64,000 bases of DNA from Okamejei kenojei (Eukaryota), in NCBI GenBank assembly GCA_035221665.1, contig CM069141.1:40858001-40922000 (forward strand), written 5' to 3'. Shown here one piece after another: positions 2,327-62,778 of this stretch. The first letter of the stretch is position 1; each line of letters starts with the position of its first letter. The translations under genes were made by a program, and so were the position numbers. The notes beneath the pieces are model-generated. The model ran no database searches. It had not been told where the DNA came from and worked only from the letters and a program-made list of their open reading frames with translations.

Positions 2327-2541
2327 TGTTCTGAATTATTCTTTGAGCATGGCATAAAGTCTAGTAAAGGATAGGAAGAGGGAGAGGAAGAGGGAATGGA
2401 AGAGAGAGAGAAAAAAAAAAGTAGGGTGCCTCCTTGCTAATGTTTTCCCCTATTGCAGGTTCGAGGAAGACTGCACCACTGTGACAAACCTAGGTTTGTC
2501 ACAGTGAACTGCAGGGAGAAACCTGAGATCACTACGCCTCC
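2327..2541 (+). repeat. Left copy of long direct repeat flanking the HERO-like element
   Basis: 2327-2492 is nearly identical to 6266-6429; ~2504-2541 matches ~6668-6705. Confidence 0.9.
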
Positions 2542-2562
2542 TCACTAATAACCTCTGTCACC

Positions 2563-5500
2563 TTGTTAGGGCACAAGAGCCACCCTCACTTGGCTACAAA
2601 AGGTTCAAACAGAAAAATACCCCCAGAGTCTGCAAGAGCGGGGGCGCAAGATGACTCATCGACTGACCACCTGGAAACAAACCTTGGAACGGACACGACA
2701 TTGAATCAAGTAAGTGGCAAAACTCTTGAAAAGCGAGCAGCTGGACACGTTCTTCAGACCTGTAGGTGTGGCTGGACTAAACTAACATCAACTCGTGGTC
2801 TCAAAATTCATCAGGGTCGAAAAAAATGCTTGAAAATCCCCAACCCAGGGCCCCCCATTGACCAGATTCTGTTAAGAGGACGGTCAAATCAGTCAGATGA
2901 AACTCAGCGGCAGGAAGAAATCCACAGTCCGCAGAGCATCAGCAGCCTACGGGATGTGGCAGAAGCTTCAGGCAACAGTCCAAGACACAACCAGGCACAT
3001 CGTAAAGTGGAGAACATGCAAGGACATAAGCCATTGGTGAAATGGCCAAAGTCTACCAGCAAGGAGTGGGAAATCATCAATGCAGATGTGAGCATAAGCT
3101 TAAGTGGAATCAAGGGATCAGCAGAAAAGAACTTGGAGAAGATGGGTGATCTAGTCTACAGCTATGGAAATGAGAAATTTGGTGAAAAGGAACAACTTAG
3201 CAGGAAAGATAGGCTTCCTCCCCCCAAGTCCCGTCGTCTCCAGGAAATCCAACGACTTGTTAAGGAAAGAAGAAGCCTGAGGAAGGTGTGGAAAAAAGCA
3301 ACAGCAGAAGAAAGGGAGGGCATCAATCTCCTTCAAAAGGACCTAAAACAGAGGCTCTCAAAGCTGCGCAGAGCGGAGAATTTAAGGAAACATCGCAAAA
3401 AGAAGGAAAAAGCAAGACTTCTACAAAGATCCCTTTAAGTTTGTAAAAGGCATTTTCACAAAAGAAAAAAGCCGATCCCTGAAAGCGTCAAAAAAGAAGG
3501 TTGAAGGACACATCAGAACCATCCACACTGATGAGTTAAAAGATGAACCAATTTTTGTCCCCGCTGACATCCCACCAATCTCACCCCCCAACATCAATTT
3601 AACATCAGCCCTCCCAAGCTGAGTGAGGTAAAAGAAGTAGTGAGGAAGGCAAGAATGGCCTCTGCACCAGGCCCTAATGGTGTTCCGTATTGTGTCTACA
3701 AGAATGCCCCAGACAGTCTGAAATTCCTCTGGAGGAACATGAGGGTTGCGTGGGAAAAGGAAGTTATCCCCAAAGCCTGGTGAAGAGCAGGGGGAGTCCT
3801 GATCCCAAAAGAAAACAATTCTTCCACCATCGAACAGTTTCGGCAAATAAACCTTCTTAACATAGAGGGCAAGATCTTTTTCAGTGTGGTGGCAAAAAGA
3901 CTTACAAAGTATCTGAAACAAAACCATTTCATTGATACGTCAATCCAAAAGGCTGGCATAGAAGGCTTCTCGGGATGCCTTGAACATACCAGCGTCATAT
4001 GGCAACAAATCTAGACTGCTAAGAAAGAACGAAAGAATCTGCATGTCTTGTTCCTCGATCTGGCCAATGCCTATGGATCAGTTACTCATTCGCTACTGTG
4101 AACTGCTTTTGAATTCTTTCAGGAGCCGGCAATAATAACAAATCTGATAAAAACTACTTCCAGGATCTGCAATTTTGTCTCACAACATCAGACTTTACCA
4201 CAACGTGGCAACCACTGGAAGTAGGCATCATGGCAGGGTGCACCATCTCCCCATTGACCTTTACTATGGCAATGGAGCTCATTATCAGAGCATCAAAATG
4301 GGTTGTGGGAGGAAAGCGGTTACAGTGTGGTCAGCGATTGCCAATGGTACGAGCCTATATGGACGATATAACAACACTAACAACAACTATCCCCTGCATC
4401 AAGAGACTTCTGGAAAAATGTCATCAAAACATCACATGGGCAAGGATGAAGATTAATCCCAGCAAGTGCAGAAGCATCTCCATTGTCAAAGGTCAAGTCA
4501 AGGATCAAAGATTTCATATTAATGGAATACCTGTTCCAACTGTTTCAGAAATGAAGAGTTTGGGCCGATGGTATGATGCAAAGCTCAAGGACACCAAGCA
4601 ATTTGAACAACTGAAAAAGGATATAGCACATCATGCACATAGCTCGCATCAACAAGATCTTGCTACCAGGAAAACTCAAGCTGTGGTGCTTCCAATTTGG
4701 CATACTACCAAGAATCATGTGGCCTTTAACTATGTATGAAATCCCCATCAACAAAGTGGAAAAGCTGGAAAGAATGATCAGCACACATGTGAAACAGTGG
4801 CTTGGACTTCCACGATGCTTAAGTGCTGTCGGACTGTATGGGAGTGGCAAATTGGAATTACCCATTACAGGACTTGTGGAAGAGTTCAAATGCACTAAAG
4901 CAAGGTTGGTCATGACCCTCATTGAATCAGAAGATACTGTTATTCAAACAGCGGCCCCCCATGTGGCAACGGGGAGGAAGTGGATCCAATCTGAAGCTGT
5001 TCAGAGTGCGAAGTCTACTCTTCATTTCCAGGATATGGTTGGCCAAGTCCAACACGGGAGAGCCGGGCTTGGGCTCGTCCCAAAAGCTCCTCAATGGCAC
5101 AAGGCAACATCAGTGCAGAAAAGACGGCTCGTGGTGGAGGAGGTGAGAAGACGGGAGGAGGCAGAGCGACACGCCAAGGCCGTCTCAATGGCCAAGGAAA
5201 GCCAATGGACTAACTGGGAGAGTCTGGAAAAGAGGAAACTCAGCTGACGTGAAATCTGGCAAATGGAAGGATCTCAACTAAGTTTTGTCATCAGAGCCAC
5301 TTATGATGTTCTTCCATCACCGCAGAACCTGAAGCAGTGGTTCGGAGAAGACCCCACTTGCTCCCTTTGCTAAGCACCTGGATCACTAAGGCACATTTTA
5401 ACAGGATGCACTATGAGCCTCGGCCAAGGGCGTTACACTTGGCGGCATAACCAAGTTCTCAGACAGCTGTCATCAATCCTTGAACAGAGGCGAACGATCA

Positions 5501-6029
5501 CAAATGCTTCCCCACCAACATCGGCAGGAAATGTCCACTTCACAACATTTGTCCAGCAGGCCAACCTCCAGAGCACCAGATAACATCAATGGATGCAAGC
5601 ATTCTGCAGCCTGCTCAGGATTGGGAAATTGAAGTGGACTTAGAAAAAAGCTTGTGTTTCCCCCAGACATTGTGGTTACAACACTCCAGCCAGACTTGGT
5701 CCTGTGGTCCACAACAGCCAAGTTGGCATATGTTGTGTAATTGACAGTTCCATGGGAAGATGGTGTTGAAGAAGCTTATGAGAGGAAAAAGACCAAGTAC
5801 TCTGAACTGGCAACTGAAGCTTCCCAGAATGGCTGGAAGACCAAGATTTTCCCTGTCGAAGTGGGATGCAGGGGATTTGTTGCTTCATCTATGACCAGGC
5901 TATTAAAGAAAATGGGGGTGAGGGGTCGCTGCCTGCAACAAGCAATCAAATCATTATCAAATTCTGCGGAAAAAAAGCAGCAATTGGATCTGGATCAAAA
6001 GGAGAGACAACAATTGGGCTGCAAGATGA
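2563..6029 (+). pseudogene. Disrupted RT/RLE polyprotein of the HERO-like element
   Basis: ORF fragments 2563-3438, 4230-4739, 4633-5247 and 5741-6148 are collinear parts of one protein broken by frameshifts and in-frame stops (e.g. TGA at 3781, TAG at ~4012). Confidence 0.85.
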
Positions 6030-6037
6030 ATACAGGA

Positions 6038-6167
6038 GGGTATGGAATTGAGGGGGGTGTAACTGGGACACCAGGTATCACCGTTGAGCCCTCTGGAGAT
6101 GTTGTGGGCTTATCAATGAAACATCAAAGAAGGAGGGTGCCCACCTGATGACCCCGATGACATACCT
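6038..6167 (+). ncRNA. Candidate double-pseudoknot hammerhead-core RNA with k-turn (copy 1)
   Basis: GUU 6101-6103, GAAA 6118-6121, CUGAUGA 6145-6151; six helices with the same junction geometry as the copy at 61056-61189. Confidence 0.65.
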
Positions 6168-6265
6168 ACCCTACCTTTCACCACTCCAATCCCACTGCAA
6201 ATAGCAAGAGTGCCGACTTATTACAGGGATTGAAACATCAAGTCCTATTAGCTCTACTAATCTAC

Positions 6266-6705
6266 TGTTCTGAATTATTCTTTGAGCATGGCATAAAGTC
6301 TAGTAAAGGATAGGAAGAGGGAGAGGAAGAGGGAATGGAAGAGCGAGAGAAAAAAAAATAGGGTGCTTCCTTGCTAATGTTTTCCCCTATTGCAGGTTCG
6401 AGGAAGACTGCACCACTGTGACAAACCTAAGACCACCAGCAAGACTGCACTGCTGAGAAGCCCTCGGCAGCCAGTGCTGCTACTAAGGCCAAGACTGAGA
6501 TGCCAGTGCCTCTACCTGCCCACAAGCAATGAGGGACTGCACCCACACACAGAGACAAAGACAGAGATGCCAGATAACCTAGAGACCACCATGCCGCCTC
6601 TTCAGACCCCAAAGCTGAGATGCCAGGATCAACTTGACACCACCAGTGCTTCTTCTTGAGGCAATGGTGAACTGCAGGGAGAAACCCGAGATCACTACGC
6701 CTCCT
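6266..6705 (+). repeat. Right copy of the long direct repeat
   Basis: Matches 2327-2492 and ~2504-2541, with ~240 extra bp in between. Confidence 0.85.
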
Positions 6706-51752: not shown

Positions 51753-52197
51753 AAGACTAGGCTTGTATTCATTGGAGTTTAGAAGGAGCAGGGGGGATCT
51801 AATAGAAACATATAAAATTATAAAAGGACTTGGCAAGCTAGATGCAGGAAAAATGTTCCCAATGTTGGGCGAGTCCAGAACCAGGGGCCACAGTCTAAGA
51901 ATAAAGGGGAAGCCATTTAAGACTGAGGTGAGAAAAAAACTTTTTCACCCAGAGAGTTGTAAATTTGTGGAATTCCCTGGAAGAGGGCAGTGGAGGCCAA
52001 ATCACTGGATGGATTTAAGAGAGAGTTTGATACAGCTCTAGGGGCTAGTGGAATCAAGGGAAATGGGGAGAAGTAAGGCATGGGTTATTGATTGGGGACG
52101 ATCAGCCATGATCACAATGCATGGTGGTGCTGACTCGATGGGCTGAATGGCCTCCTCCTGCACCTATTTTCTGCGTTTCTATGTTTCTATCTTTCTA
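51753..52197 (+). mobile_element. CR1 3' fragment inserted in BEL gag
   Basis: LGLYSLEFRR.RGDLIETYKI...TRGHSLRIKG; (TTTCTATG)n tail. Confidence 0.85.
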
Positions 52198-54222
52198 TGA
52201 TTTCAACTAACAAAAGTTCCACCTTTTCCAAAACTGAAGAAAGATCAGAACCGAAGAGAAGTAGTTTTGCTATCACAACCATACCTGTGGAAACGATGGA
52301 TGGAATGAAAGGAAATATGTCTACTACCAAGCAAATAGTATTTTGTTTGTTATGTGATGAAGTTGGTCACACCATAACATGGTGTCGAAGATTCAAGATG
52401 AAAGAATATGAAGAAAAGATGGTTTTCTTGAAAGAGAATGGAATCTGTTTTGGATGTTTGAAAAAAGGACATATGGTGAGAGACTGTAGGAGTCCTATGA
52501 TTTGTTATAAGTGCAGGCAATATCATCCTGAAGCACTTCACACTGAAGAAGAGCTACCAGAGTATTGGGAAGAAGAACTGGAACAAATAGATGAAGAAAT
52601 ATCAGAGCAAATAGAAGAAGATGAACCGAAGCAAACAGAACAGAGGCAACTACTAGAGATGCTATCTCCTCGCCTCAAGTAACTGCTCATATTGGGGCTG
52701 GGGTTGAAGCTTGTAACTTTTCTATCTTACCAGTACAGGTAAGGAACAGCAAGACAAATACAGTGTTGCAAACATATGCTTTTCTGGATCACGGAAGCTC
52801 GACTACCTTTAGCACAGTAAGCCTGACGAGAAGGCTGAACATCACAGGAGAAGAGACCAAGATTCAATTACGTACCATGACTAAAGATAAAGAGAGCAGG
52901 AGTCAATACATTACGAGTATGGAGATATCCAGTTTGGATGAAGATAGTTTTATACCAATATCTGAAGTGTTTACACATGGAACCATGCCTGTTGGTCGTC
53001 AAAATATACCAAGACATGAAGACTTGAAACAATGGCCTTACCTGAAGGATGTCAAGATATCTGAAATAAATTCTAGTGTTGATCTAATTATCGAAACGAA
53101 CCTATACAAATTGTTAGGAGCCAAGGTGATGGACCATATGCTACAAAAACCCGACTTGGATGGGTTATCTATGGAACTATCCTACCATTGTTGTTAATCA
53201 AATATCTATTGATAAATTAGAAAACCAGTGATGAAGCAATACCATCATGACTTCAATGAAAGTAACAGCAAGGAATCTGAAGAGATGTCAAATGAAGAGT
53301 TGAAGTTCATGGAAATTATGAACTACTCAGTAAAGATTGACAGACACTATTGTGTGGACTTACCTTTCAAACAAGAAAGTGTTAGTTTGCCGAATAATCG
53401 TTGCAAGGCTGAGCATAGCCACCAGAATTTGAAACGTGTTTGGCGAGAATACTATATTTCATGAAGTAAGAATCTCTTTGAAGAATAATTTCTACAAGGA
53501 TGATTACTTAAAATCCATGTCTACTGAGCAGAAAGCAATTCTACCAGTAGAACATATAAATTCCCTTTGCGATAAGGGAGGATTCACACTTTCCAAGTGG
53601 ATCCGCGACAATTGTGAAAGCATTCCACTAGACGATAGAGCCAAAGAAACCAGAGAGTTGGATTTGGACAAAGACAATCTGCCAATGGAAAGAGCATTGG
53701 GGGTTACTAATGTTGTACAACTGAAATATGTTAACACAAAAGAAAATCCTGCGGATTAAGCTTCCAGAGAACTGACAGCGAACCACTTCTCAAGCGATCA
53801 ATGAACTAAAATCTCTCTGTAAGCCAGACAGAGAATGGCCAAAGCCCGAGCTGGGATTTGAAATCTCTGCTAATGATCTGGAAATTAAATCAAACCTAAC
53901 GGTGAACTTTAATGCTAATAGTCATGTAATTCTCTCAAAGGATTTTCACACTTCAACATTGTTGTGATAACACATTCATGAATTGATCAGACATGGAAGA
54001 AGACGTTTCATGCTATCAAAGCTTAGGACTGTTACGTTTTGGATTATATACTGGGTATCATGCTTGATTTTAAGGGTTTGGTGCACACGGAATGACTGTA
54101 AACTAAAACCAGTGTTTTAATAAGATTAATAATCAAGTTATGCTTGTTTCTAGAAGGCGAAAGTGAAGATGGAAGAGTCGATGAAGAATTCTGATTGCGG
54201 ATATATAGTGCATGCTATTTTT

Positions 54223-58672: not shown

Positions 58673-59748
58673 TTAAACTAAACTAAACTACAGGTTGGGT
58701 TGGCTAATCACATCCAAATCTTGCGAATAAATAAAACAAAATATATGTGGAGAGTGAAACTCTCTTATTCTAGGTCAACTCTGTTTATGAAACCTAAAGC
58801 ATTGATTTTATTATACCGAGTTCTTTATTTCCTATAATTTCTGCAGCACCATGAGTAGACCTGGGTGGTATGACATTGCAAAAATTACACCAGGATCGAT
58901 ATTTAATACATTTTAGCTTTTCAAAGACTGGAAGATTTTAAAAGCAGAATTTAGTTCAAGGCAACTGGCTGGAAATACAATTTTGAGTGCCCACACTAAC
59001 CATTCAGCATTGTAGTGACTGTCCCTTTAGTTCGCCGCTGATATTGTGGAAATTCATTTATCACATGCGATTAAGAAAGACTATCTGAACACTCCACCTG
59101 AAGAAAAAATTGCTCTGCACTCATGTGATTACTGTGCAGAGGGATGAAGCAGAGGAAAAGAAAAAAACACATAAAATGACAAGATGTTAAACTGTTATGC
59201 AGAAAATTGTAACACTTTTGATTTATTCATAATTCACTGCCTGTGACATCTGCTTTACAATAACTTATCTGATGAACAGAATGTGGTCTTTACACCTCAG
59301 CACATTGAAGTTTCCAATACCAGATGTCACAGATATTTACTGCCCATTTTATTCATTTCAGTTTAGAATATTATTCAATTGAGCATTTAGCTGCTCTATA
59401 TGCAATATTTAAGTGTAACAGCTCTAGGTAAGGTAATGTTTAAGGAGGCTTAAACTAGTTGCAAACTGCTGGATTCACTCTATCAAAGGTGGATATACCA
59501 TTCTGCTTTATTAAAAATGCATTACGTTTTGAATAAAGGGAAATATTATAATTAATCATATCTCTTTTGATGCTTTTCTTTGTGTAGTGAGGATATTCAT
59601 CTGGACTTGCATTTCACCATTTGCAGCCTTTTAGTTTTTCTATGCCATAATCTGTCTCCTTTGTTGCCAGCTTAGGATAGAGTGCAGAAACAAGGAACTG
59701 CAGGTTCTGGTTTGCAAAATTATACACAAAATGCTGAAGTAACTCAAT

Positions 59749-61270
59749 TACCATCTATGAGGTCACTTTATCCCATGCCAACCAGCTGGAGAGACTGGTG
59801 AACTCACAAGTGAGGAAGTGGCTTGGGCTACCGAGATGCCTCAGCAGCATATGGGAATGGAGCCCTCTCACTGCCAGTCTCAAGCCTGGTGGAGGAGTAC
59901 AAATGTGCCAAAGTGAGGCTGGACATGACACTAACAGAATCCCGGAACCCAATAATAAGAGGTGTTGCTCCAACCCTAGCAACACATAGGAAATGGATTC
60001 TAGCAGCAGTGGTACTGGACGCAAAATCCGCCCTCCAACACCGGGACATAGTGGGCCATGTCCAACAAGGCCGAGGGGGCTTTGGCCTGGGAGCAATGAA
60101 ACCTACCTGGCAAAAGGCTACTCCAACTGAACGTCGGCACCTGGTGGTGGAGGAGGTGCGCCACCAGGAAGAAGCAGCCAGGTGTGCCAAAGCCATATCC
60201 CAAGCCAAACAAGGCCGCTGGATGAAGTGGGATGGCGTTGAGAGGAGGAAGATCACATGGAGAGAGCTGTGGACCATGGAGTCAAATAAGTTGAGATTCA
60301 TTATCAGAGATACATATGACGTCCTTCCCTCTCCCACAAACCTAAATCTTTGGCTGGGAGAGGATCCAGCCTGCCCCCTGTGTGCAGTTCCAGCAAACCT
60401 CAAGCACATCCTGGTCGGTTGTAAGACCAGCCTAACACAAGACAGATACACCTGGTGACACAACCAGGTGCTGAGGTGTTTGGCAGCTGAACTCGAGTGC
60501 TAGAGAGTTACCACCAACGCCATGCCTAGCAATGCCCAGATAACATTCCCGCAAATACCATCCTTCATCCGGGAAGGAGAGAAACGGAGGACTGACCCCT
60601 CGCCTCTCAACTCATGCCCACTGAACGCAGCCAGGGACTGGGAAATGCATGTTGACCAAGGCCAGAGGCTTTCGTTCCCAGTTGAAATCGCAGTTAACAA
60701 CCTGCGACCAGACCTCGTTCTCTGGTCTAACTCCTGTCGCCGTGTTTTCATCATTGAGCTGACGGTCCCATGGAAGGAGGCTGTGGACAAGGCTTATGAA
60801 AGGAAAAGCTTTCATATTCAAACCTTGCAGCAGAGGCAAAGGAGAGAGGTTGGAGGGTAAGGTTGTGTCCAGCGGAGGTGGGGTGCAGGGGCTTTGTTGC
60901 CAGTTCCACCGCAAGGCTCCCGAGGGAAGTAGGAGTCAAAGGGCAGGCACAAAGGAGGGCAATAAACAAACTTGCCAATGCCGCCGAACAGAGCAGTCAC
61001 TGGCTGTGGCTGAAGAGGAAAGATGCTGTCTGGGCTGCCACGTGACCATCTAGAAGCTAGCAATAAGACACACACCCAGGTCTGATCAACCTGTGGTGGG
61101 CCTGCCTCGACTGAGGGTGTCTTGTGATAAAAGGCCGAAACACCCAGTGACGTTGAGGTACACAACTGAAGATGTGTCTGGTTGTTAGCAAAATTCACCT
61201 AGTGGTCATACCCAAGAATGTCAATTGTAGTGAAATCTTTGGGATTGTAACATCCAGTCCTAATAATCAA
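59749..61270 (+). mobile_element. 5'-truncated HERO-like non-LTR retrotransposon (second, divergent subfamily)
   Basis: WLGLPRCLSS, GHVQQGRGGFG, DTYDVLPSPTNL..CPLCAVPANLKHILVGC, RPDLVLWS..IELTVPW, EVGCRGF; ORF ends at 61045; inserted into a PLE-derived repeat with TCAAT on both sides. Confidence 0.88.
61056..61189 (+). ncRNA. Candidate double-pseudoknot hammerhead-core RNA with k-turn (copy 2, best preserved)
   Basis: GUC 61119-61121, CGAAA 61136-61140, CUGAAGA 61166-61172; six helices that covary with copy 1. Confidence 0.7.
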
Positions 61271-62589
61271 TCAATGGGTCAGGCTGCATCTCTGGAGAAC
61301 ATGGATAGACAACATTTTGGGTTGGGACATTTCTTCAGACTGATTAGGCGGTGGTGGGGGTGGGGGAAGAGAAATCCAAAAGAGAGGAGGGGCAGGACAA
61401 AGCCTATCCATGTTCTTTAGAGATGCTGTCCGACCCGCTGGGTTACTCAAGCATTTTTTGTCTTCTAAGGTAGAGTGTTTGTAAAGCAGACCATTAACAG
61501 GAGTTCCACATTTGGACAGGTCCATAAACATTCTCTGATAAATCAGTGCAACACATTGGTATATGTGTGAAAATCAAGTCACTGTGATTGATTAATCTTT
61601 CTGATCAGCTCTCCTCGGGGCAAGTGTAGGAAAATAATTTAACTGACTGCAAAAATCTGTTCTACCACACTCTCTGAAGAATCATTGTAGTCTGCAAACA
61701 TTTTAACATTGGAACATTAATGTGATCTTGTGGAAGATAAAATTCTCAATTTCTGAAGTAGATGCATCCTCAAGATTGGGACCATCAGAAGATGTTAGAT
61801 TCTATAGAGCTAGAAGTAATGTAGCAAAACCTAAGCACTGTGGAAAAAATAAAATTAAATTCTGGTGAAATATGACCATCAGTTAGGCACCAATTGAAGC
61901 AAAAAGATAAAGAGAACAACACTGAATAATTCTGTTGATATTGCTCTTATCTTTTCCCATGTGTGATTTTTAGCAGCAGGTATTGCCTCAGCCTGGCCAA
62001 ATTAACTGTACTTTGCCTTACAACAAAAATATTGTTGCATCGTAATATGTCATTCAACGTAGATGTTGTGACCTATCTGAATTTCAAGTGAGGTACAGGA
62101 AGGTACTAGGAACCATGCGGTTGCAGTTAAAGAATTCTTTCTTTTCTTTAAAAATGGAGGATGACCTGTACCAAAGTGATTCAGTGGGTTCTGAGGTGGC
62201 TGATGTTGGATACTCTGGCCTGGGACAATTGGGACAGGTAGTGTTTGAAGTCATTGTCTGCTGGGTGGTTAAGGAGGTGGTGCACTCTTTTTTCTGTTTT
62301 CACAGGATCATTCATGAGCTCTCAGTGCCTTGGTTGAAGCTCCTTCTCCATTTTGATCCGTCACAAACCAGAGATCTCCACCATCTGGTGTGAATATTAC
62401 TTTTTGTTTTCAAAATTTGGTTTTCAAATTAGGTTTTGAAAAGATTCTAGAAGTGTTGCTTCTATCCCCAGAAACCTCTTGCTATGATGGAATTCTGAAT
62501 AGACTGCCTGTTTCAGGAATCTGTTGGACCCTTCTACATATGAATTACAGTTGAGTTGTAATTAAAACCTGGATACTAGGAAAGCTGTA

Positions 62590-62778
62590 AGATAGACATA
62601 AAATGCTGTAGCAACTCAACAGGACAGGCAGCATCTCTGGAGAGAAGGTATGGGTGATGTTTCGGGTCGAGACATCACCCATTCCTTCTCTCGAGAGATG
62701 CTGCCTGTCCCGCTGAGTTACTCCTGCAGTTTGTGTATATCTTCGATTTAAACCAGCAGCTGCAATTCTTTCCTACAT
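62590..62778. mobile_element. Fold-back (inverted) Penelope-like terminal fragment
   Basis: Arms GGACAGGCAGCATCTCTGGAGAGAAGG..GGGTGATGT / ACATCACCCATTCCTTCTCTCGAGAGATGCTGCCTGTCC. Confidence 0.7.

What the first reader, a model, noticed from the sequence alone, without database searches (positions are those of the whole stretch)
61056..61189. Hammerhead catalytic core in a non-canonical, doubly pseudoknotted topology in a HERO retrotransposon 3' UTR
Seen in the sequence, starting 11 nt after the RLE ORF stop. Closing stem PA 61056-61072/61173-61189 (16 of 17 pairs including GU). Hairpin PB 61073-61098. Stem II GGCCT 61099-61103/AGGCC 61132-61136, directly before GAAA (61137-61140). Outer stem GCCTCGAC 61104-61111/GTTGAGGT 61152-61159. 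Stem III GGGTGT 61115-61120/ACACCC 61140-61145, with a GUC triplet (putative cut after C61121). Stem I TTGTG 61122-61126/CACAA 61161-61165, directly followed by CUGAAGA 61166-61172. Established: hammerhead types I-III are circular permutations of the order GUH, CUGANGA, GAAA. Here the order is GUH, GAAA, CUGANGA, so stems I and II must form as pseudoknots, and two stacked helices (PA, PB) sit between A9 and G10.1. Inference: a hammerhead-related ribozyme architecture I do not recognise as described, associated with HERO-clade elements and likely missed by standard hammerhead models.
Basis: partly seen in the sequence, partly recalled or inferred. Interest (0 to 1): 0.92.

Follow-up and report, generated by a model that had tools for sequence, protein, structure and literature searches.

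The report
Split-core hammerhead ribozyme in HERO retrotransposons
A family of jumping genes carries, just behind its protein gene, a conserved RNA fold that has every part of a hammerhead self-cutting RNA but wired in an order not found in the papers searched, and its longest copies are head-to-tail overlaps, so the fold likely cuts the element's RNA into a circle that would then be copied back into the genome.

Summary
All stated pairings are present. The fold sits in the 3' UTR of an RLE non-LTR element (HERO-like RT) and recurs in 64 of 69 protein-selected relatives. All six helices covary, including both pseudoknots (29 of 34 pairs change on both sides). Hammerhead rules that were not searched for also hold: position 17 is never G, and G10.1 pairs with C/U11.1. 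The order GUH-GAAA-CUGANGA is not new: it is type SGC (Eckert 2023, shown to cleave). What I did not find described is this form, which is SGC opened between A9 and G10.1 and held by a PA/PB junction, nor its presence in retrotransposons. New here: all 40 copies picked by their 5' end are preceded by the element's own 3' end at one junction. The two repeats of a locus match each other, and 21 upstream repeats run through the cut site. This fits a Penelope-like cycle of cleavage, circularisation and more-than-unit reverse transcription. Cleavage and circles are untested, and template jumping is not excluded.

The parts
59745..61272 (+). 5'-truncated copy of a HERO-like RLE non-LTR retrotransposon (full unit about 3.85 kb)
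   Evidence: 96% identical to positions 2339-3875 of full unit L149; copies share the 3' boundary near 61272 and vary at the 5' end; 914 candidates in the genome
59745..61045 (+). Broken ORF remnant: RT thumb region, CCHC knuckle, PD-(D/E)xK endonuclease; in-frame stops and a frameshift near 60800-60812; terminal TGA 61043-61045
61056..61072 (+). PA 5' strand (pairs with 61173-61189)
   Evidence: 16 of 17 pairs; 7 of 7 core-proximal pairs change on both sides in relatives
61073..61098 (+). PB hairpin, abutting PA and G10.1 with no spacer; loop 61082-61088 holds the palindrome TGATCA
   Evidence: (zero-spacer PA/PB junction in 19 of 26 clusters, 2-4 when shifted)
61099..61103 (+). Stem II strand 10.1-10.5 (G10.1 = 61099), displaced upstream of the cut site
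   Evidence: 4 of 5 pairs change on both sides
61104..61111 (+). P4 5' strand; P4 corresponds to the stem I/II-bridging helix of type-SGC hammerheads
   Evidence: comparison with PMC10085705
61115..61121 (+). Stem III strand 16.x and GUC triplet; predicted cut 3' of C61121
   Evidence: position 17 is U 12, C 11, A 3, never G, in 26 clusters; the cut itself is predicted only
61122..61126 (+). Stem I strand 1.1-1.5 (pseudoknot with 61161-61165)
   Evidence: 5 of 5 pairs change on both sides
61127..61131 (+). Linker from stem I to stem II (3-7 nt in relatives)
61132..61145 (+). Stem II strand 11.x (61132-61136), GAAA (61137-61140), stem III strand 15.x (61140-61145)
61152..61159 (+). P4 3' strand
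61161..61172 (+). Stem I strand 2.x (61161-61165) and core C3-A9 CUGAAGA (61166-61172)
61173..61189 (+). PA 3' strand, directly after A9, where stem II would follow in published hammerheads
   Evidence: bases after the core do not pair with the strand before GAAA (58 vs 57.2 by chance)
61190..61272 (+). Terminal segment; ragged 3' boundary 61270-61276 without poly(A); in long copies it is joined directly to the element's 5' sequence
6047..6158 (+). Same fold in a second, divergent HERO-like family in this window (element about 2545-6265): stem II 6083-6087/6113-6117, GUU 6101-6103, stem I 6104-6108/6140-6144, core 6145-6151
   Evidence: model R1 56.6 bits, not in the training set

Best explanation
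The 3' UTR of HERO-like retrotransposons holds a conserved, covarying hammerhead fold of S-G-C order with its core opened between A9 and G10.1, which likely cuts the RNA after C61121 so that a transcript across two repeats would yield a unit-length RNA that is likely joined into a circle and reverse-transcribed for more than one turn. Shown: the six helices and core conservation; the head-to-tail junction before every 5' end examined; same-locus repeats match each other; cDNA synthesis passes the cut site without scar. Inferred: (1) PA and PB stack and present A9 and G10.1 side by side, as at a strand exchange, so the normal active site forms; (2) cleavage gives 2',3'-cyclic phosphate and 5'-OH ends; (3) these ends are religated by the ribozyme or by a host RtcB-type ligase; (4) the element's protein primes target-primed reverse transcription inside the circle near 61272 and stops at variable points, which gives 5'-truncated solo copies and partial tandems that carry two ribozymes and can seed the next round. 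My odds: fold real 0.97, catalytically active 0.85, circle route 0.65.
For: Fold present in 57 of 69 protein-selected loci by core plus stem III anchors (shuffles 0.45, reverse strand 0) and in 64 of 69 with model R1. Covariation: 95% of 676 cells paired, 29 of 34 pairs change on both sides, slid registers 36-48%. Catalytic signatures: position 17 never G and 10.1-11.1 G-C or G-U in 24 of 26 clusters, neither imposed by the search; N7 takes all four bases; a U3-A8 variant occurs. 0 of 17 subfamily-diagnostic sites fall in 61099-61172, and the 0.83-kb non-autonomous unit keeps the fold. The same block order, linker and bridging helix cleave in vitro in type SGC (PMC10085705), and one extra nucleotide at 9/10.1 is natural. 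Tandems: 40 of 40 copies picked by 5' sequence have the own 3' end upstream (37 by BLAST, 3 with only the last 7-10 nt); 21 run upstream past 61121. Same-locus repeats agree at 280 of 331 diagnostic calls vs 55.7 +/- 4.5% permuted (0 of 10000). One 17-20 bp TSD encloses a whole tandem (L171). 13 of 80 metagenome loci and L285 of the second family show the same join. Ends are ragged; 12 of 30 continue into the next unit's first bases; poly(A) in 1 of 58. Only 1 copy begins at the cut site against 402 intact. The same cycle is proposed for Penelope-like elements (PMC4209133).
Against: No cleavage, ligation or circular RNA was observed. No published hammerhead that I found tolerates a two-helix junction at A9/G10.1, and Eckert et al. 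assume that it cannot. The lack of copies starting at 61122 fits a religated circle but equally an RNA that was never cut. 15% of diagnostic calls disagree within loci. TSDs were found in only 1 of 32 tandem loci, so single-event origin rests mostly on sequence concordance. No copy with two full extra units was seen (longest upstream repeat 3.5 kb). 5 of 69 relatives lack the fold (L043, L054, L064, L101, L103), and L101/L103 still show the 5'-type word downstream. Joins in short-read metagenome contigs can be assembly products. The core motif was partly imposed by my anchor pattern, and permutation controls ignore relatedness.
Confidence: 0.65

Rival explanations
1. The ribozyme cuts but no covalent circle forms. 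The cut trims read-through transcripts or limits expression, and tandems arise when the RT jumps across the base-paired nick or from the 5' end of one RNA to the 3' part of a sister RNA.
For: Template jumping is known for R2 RT (title seen in the reference list of PMC6765202; details recalled). Sister RNAs of one donor would also give same-locus concordance. The cut ends stay paired through stems II, III, P4 and PA.
Against: A nick should leave stops or scars at 61121/61122: 1 copy starts there against 402 intact, no more than at two control positions (0 and 1). The 3'-5' junction is the same to the base in most of 40 loci.
Confidence: 0.18
2. The fold is a non-catalytic protein-binding or priming structure derived from a hammerhead; tandems persist by read-through of existing tandems.
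For: R2-type proteins bind structured UTRs (PMC12222951, abstract start only). All genomic copies are copied through the site. The A9/G10.1 split has no tested precedent.
Against: The never-G rule at position 17, the free N7, the U3-A8 variant and G10.1-C11.1 follow catalytic rules. Without regeneration, upstream repeats would shorten each generation, yet they reach 3.5 kb.
Confidence: 0.1
3. The fold is active mainly as a dimer: palindromic PB loops pair two RNAs or two repeats, so that CUGANGA of one copy works with stem II of the other.
For: 6-nt palindromes in the PB region in 17 of 26 clusters vs 9.7 in shuffles (8 of 2000), with varying sequence. Metazoan minimal hammerheads work as dimers (PMC4209133).
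Against: 9 of 26 clusters lack one; the shuffle ignores hairpin bias; all stems can form in one copy. This would modify, not replace, the best explanation.
Confidence: 0.05
4. Tandems come from independent insertions of new copies at the 5' end of old ones and say nothing about the ribozyme.
For: Self-targeted head-to-tail arrays occur in other elements (earlier finding e1-7857660, unchecked). Two different families lie 3.7 kb apart on one metagenome contig (L073, L082).
Against: Most copies insert in unrelated flanks (28 of 30) while 40 of 40 5' ends are occupied; the upstream repeat matches its own downstream unit, including short-unit with short-unit.
Confidence: 0.02

Closest known systems
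Type-SGC non-circularly permuted hammerhead (HRIMA-1 and variants; Eckert et al. 2023, PMC10085705; read main-text parts 2-6 of 8 and supplement parts 1 and 8 of 42)
   Same: Order cleavage site, GAAA, CUGANGA; stems I and II as pseudoknots; short stem I to stem II linker; a helix bridging the far ends of stems I and II, joined to stem III.
   Different: Their descriptor needs the stem II strand directly after CUGAUGA(U)G at the 3' end. Here that strand lies upstream of the cut site, the SGC termini are joined, and A9/G10.1 is opened and clamped by PA/PB: a circular permutation of SGC. Theirs are in metatranscriptome RNAs, none in genomes of known organisms; this is in a 2.76-Gb genome and in metagenome DNA.
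Hammerhead types I, II, III and the PK hammerhead (PMC6765202, PMC11300833; passages)
   Same: Core nucleotides, stems I-III, NUH site.
   Different: Different connectivity; no Rfam model hits; in the PK form A9 and G10.1 remain in one stem.
Penelope-like elements with hammerheads in pseudo-LTRs (PMC4209133 passages; PMC11167929 part 1 of 4)
   Same: Partial head-to-tail tandems, hammerhead in the repeat, proposed circular template, internal initiation of reverse transcription.
   Different: PLEs have GIY-YIG nuclease, telomerase-like RT and type I or minimal hammerheads; this element has an R2-superfamily RT with PD-(D/E)xK nuclease.
R2 and other non-LTR elements with 5' HDV-like ribozymes (PMC6765202 passages)
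   Same: RLE non-LTR element with a self-cleaving RNA.
   Different: Ribozyme class and position: the R2 ribozyme makes the 5' end; this one lies 150 nt inside the apparent 3' end.
Metazoan retrozymes (PMC7229834 passages)
   Same: Ribozyme-bearing tandem repeats expressed as circles; the 0.83-kb non-autonomous unit here resembles them.
   Different: Retrozymes are 170-400 nt with type I hammerheads and no known own RT; here an autonomous partner with the same ends exists.

Membership tests
Hammerhead ribozyme | Core CUGANGA and GAAA | tested here: met
   partly imposed by the anchor pattern, but 57 of 69 loci vs 0.45 in shuffles
Hammerhead ribozyme | Stems I, II, III flanking the core, with covariation | tested here: met
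Hammerhead ribozyme | NUH triplet (17 not G) and R10.1-Y11.1 pair | tested here: met
   26 of 26 and 25 of 26 clusters (GC 22, GU 2, AU 1)
Hammerhead ribozyme | Site-specific self-cleavage | not testable with these tools
   no raw RNA reads
Hammerhead types I-III | Circular order GUH, CUGANGA, GAAA in a three-way junction | tested here: not met
   order is GUH, GAAA, CUGANGA; no Rfam hit
Type-SGC hammerhead | Block order S, G, C with short stem I to II linker | tested here: met
   definition
Type-SGC hammerhead | Helix bridging the far ends of stems I and II | tested here: met
   P4, 93% paired, 4 of 5 pairs change on both sides
Type-SGC hammerhead | Stem II strand directly after CUGANGA (intact block C) | tested here: not met
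   58 vs 57.2 pairs by chance; descriptor
HERO clade | Single ORF with RT, CCHC knuckle and restriction-like endonuclease | tested here: met
HERO clade | Mostly no fixed target site | tested here: met
   unrelated flanks; description in PMC4640811
HERO clade | RT groups with Repbase HERO elements in a tree | tested here: inconclusive
   no tree built; by eye the RT is far closer to HERO-1_BF and HEROTn than to Utopia, R5 or R4 rows in the PMC7650587 supplement
Penelope-like elements | GIY-YIG endonuclease and telomerase-like RT | tested here: not met
   Pfam RVT_1 only; PDB hits are L1 and R2 proteins
Penelope-like elements | Partial tandem pseudo-LTR architecture | tested here: met
Retrozymes | Type I or III hammerhead in small non-coding repeats | tested here: not met
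   different topology; units 0.83 and 3.85 kb
Retrozymes | Expressed as circular RNA | not testable with these tools

The most novel reading that the evidence does not exclude
HERO-clade elements are autonomous R2-superfamily retrotransposons that replicate through a ribozyme-made circular RNA, with internally primed, rolling-circle-like target-primed reverse transcription. Their ribozyme is a natural hammerhead topology outside the six proposed block orders, because the CUGANGA block is broken at A9/G10.1 and rebuilt by a four-way junction.
Probability: 0.55. Interest if true: 0.92.

Novelty: new variant of a known kind. Interest (0 to 1): 0.84.

Why it matters
If active, it shows that the hammerhead active site can be assembled from four separate strands, against the stated assumption that CUGANGA and stem II must be contiguous, and it puts non-circularly permuted ribozymes into genomes at hundreds of copies that Rfam does not see. 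It also gives a LINE-type element of the R2 superfamily a Penelope- or retrozyme-like circular life cycle. That makes the long-proposed link between ribozymes, circular RNA and tandem insertion directly testable with one protein and one RNA, and it bears on how HERO proteins should be given templates in RNA-based gene insertion work.

Tried and rejected
Rfam scans found no hammerhead (E up to 10, 15 loci, E up to 0.5). A canonical or plain SGC stem II after the core was rejected. A pile-up of 5' ends at the cut site was not found (controls 64, 65 have no denominators). A conserved inhibitory pairing between PA 5' and the cut-site strand, suggested by a 9-bp stem in the window copy, was rejected: 84 vs 82.5. 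TSDs were found in 1 of 32 tandem loci and 0 of 28 other loci. Viral contigs: one weak protein match; 80 of 96 core-pattern matches examined, none with the fold. Sequencing runs: no RNA holder listed, and contigs cannot show ends. A twister-like reading of the L101/L103 UTR got no Rfam support. Supplement searches for HERO endonuclease motifs in PMC4640811 and PMC4838377 found nothing; file 1 of the latter was not searched. PMC10162972 passages held nothing on variant topologies. Earlier-finding look-ups by sequence, words and genome gave nothing on this element. A genome-wide search with the RNA model was not available, so other divergent families in this genome are not counted.

Full report
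Observation. The nested helices PA, PB, P4 and III form the predicted minimum-energy fold. Rfam gives no hammerhead match. The region lies in a 5'-truncated, broken copy (59745-61272) of a dispersed repeat with 914 candidates in the 2.76-Gb genome. Full units encode one ORF with RT, CCHC knuckle and PD-(D/E)xK nuclease. By eye the RT is closest to HERO-1_BF among the rows of the PMC7650587 supplement; no tree was built.

Conservation. I selected relatives by protein only: 307 metagenome stretches encode a relative and the best 80 were returned, at 40-71% identity. Of these, 69 have at least 150 nt after the match. An anchor search that used only the core words and stem III found the motif in 57 of the 69, against 0.45 in shuffles and 0 on the reverse strand. 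A covariance model recovered 7 of the 12 misses (one weakly, E 0.008), giving 64 of 69; L043, L054, L064, L101 and L103 have none. The model also found the fold in a second HERO-like family in this window at 6047-6158, which was not in the training set.

Structure test. In 26 clusters below 80% identity, stem I has 124 of 130 Watson-Crick pairs against 66 +/- 5 in swaps (0 of 10000). Upstream stem II scores 123 against 96 +/- 3 under the same best-of-window rule. A stem II placed after the core scores 58 against 57, so it is absent. PA abuts A9 and PB abuts G10.1 with no spacer in 19 of 26 clusters, against 2-4 when shifted. A sequence-only alignment of 22 motifs (21 of the 26 representatives plus L051; L033, L041, L049, L057 and L086 were left out for unclear boundaries and all scored 43-78 bits later) gives 95% paired cells and 29 of 34 pairs with double changes; slid registers give 36-48%. 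These controls do not model relatedness. As a negative set, 80 of 96 core-pattern matches in viral contigs were examined and none had a 5-bp stem I.

Signs of catalysis. Position 17 was free in my search yet is never G (26 of 26). The 10.1-11.1 pair is G-C or G-U in 24 of 26. N7 takes all four bases. C3-G8 becomes U-A in one cluster and U-G in another. Within the genome none of 17 subfamily-diagnostic sites falls in 61099-61172, and short non-autonomous units keep the fold. These are the patterns expected of selection on an active hammerhead (the rules themselves are from my knowledge of the family and from PMC10085705 and PMC4209133). Cleavage was not observed: no RNA run with raw reads was available.

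Genomic architecture. The 40 best matches to a 166-nt piece of the element's 5' end (of 517 candidates) all have the element's own 3' end directly upstream, at one junction: 37 by BLAST and 3 with only the last 7-10 nt. The query began at the junction and asked nothing of upstream DNA. Upstream repeats range from about 10 nt to 3.5 kb; 21 pass the predicted cut and none starts at it. Units are about 3.85 kb or, in 9 loci, 0.81-0.85 kb. In 31 loci with both repeats, the two agree at 280 of 331 diagnostic calls against 56% when permuted, and share 9 of 159 rare variants against 1.9. One TSD encloses a whole tandem (L171), but TSDs are otherwise absent. The same join appears in 13 of 80 metagenome loci (49 have 700 nt or more downstream; assembly joins are possible) and in 1 of 25 copies of the second family. 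Insert ends are ragged over 61270-61276, often continue into the next unit's first bases, and lack poly(A). Genome-wide, 1 copy begins at the cut against 402 intact.

Mechanism. The simplest account is the cycle proposed for Penelope-like elements (PMC4209133, passages): a transcript through a partial tandem is cut at both ribozymes, the unit is ligated into a circle, and reverse transcription primed inside the circle runs for less or more than one turn. Internal initiation is shown for a Penelope-like protein (PMC11167929, part 1 of 4), and RtcB circularises retrozyme monomers in vitro (PMC7229834, passages). Every RNA-level step here is inferred. Template jumping without a covalent circle, and a non-catalytic role, remain open; independent self-targeted insertion is unlikely.

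Comparison with what is known. Eckert et al. 2023 (PMC10085705; main-text parts 2-6 of 8, supplement parts 1 and 8 of 42) describe and validate type-SGC hammerheads with this block order, linker and bridging helix. That paper assumes CUGANGA and its adjacent stem II bases cannot be separated, its descriptor needs them adjacent, and it found none in genomes of known organisms. The present fold is a circular permutation of SGC opened at A9/G10.1, a position where one extra base is natural. Ten literature searches found no paper linking HERO to a hammerhead, to partial tandems or to circular RNA, and none describing a junction at A9/G10.1; most hits were seen as listings only. The library lacks most subscription papers. 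Repbase, Dfam, Fell et al. 2025, bioRxiv supplements and 40 of 42 parts of the Eckert supplement (word-searched only) were not read and could bear on novelty.

Verdict. A real, deeply conserved RNA structure; very likely a self-cleaving hammerhead in a new variant topology; probably part of a circular-RNA retrotransposition cycle not found reported for R2-superfamily elements. Interest 0.84.

Noticed in passing
window 2327-2492 and 6266-6429: The second HERO-like element (about 2545-6265) is flanked by a direct repeat of about 165 bp, 96-99% alike, starting right at its 3' end: possibly an unusually long target-site duplication. It was not seen in the first family.
   Followed up: partly
window 61082-61088 and PB loops of relatives: PB loops often hold 6-nt palindromes of differing sequence (17 of 26 clusters vs 9.7 shuffled), a possible kissing-loop dimer signal.
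   Followed up: partly
L147, L150, L158, L163, L165, L166, L169, L176, L178: A non-autonomous family of about 0.83 kb (5' 640 nt plus 3' 290 nt of the full unit) keeps the ribozyme fold and the tandem junction.
   Followed up: yes
L033, L048, L061, L070, L073, L074, L285, just 3' of the tandem junction: A conserved 5'-region word with repeated purine-rich units is shared across divergent families; it could be the protein-binding site next to the priming point.
   Followed up: no
L101, L103 3' of the ORF: Relatives without this fold have a different conserved-looking UTR followed by the 5'-region word; no Rfam match.
   Followed up: partly
L073 and L082 (one metagenome contig): Two different families lie one unit length apart in the same orientation: a mixed tandem or an assembly join.
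   Followed up: no
window 62609-62723: A long inverted repeat of a different dispersed repeat; weak Rfam hairpin hit below threshold on both strands.
   Followed up: no
window 52134-53759: ORF pieces that look like a zinc-knuckle/protease polyprotein of an LTR-type element (recognition recalled, not searched).
   Followed up: no
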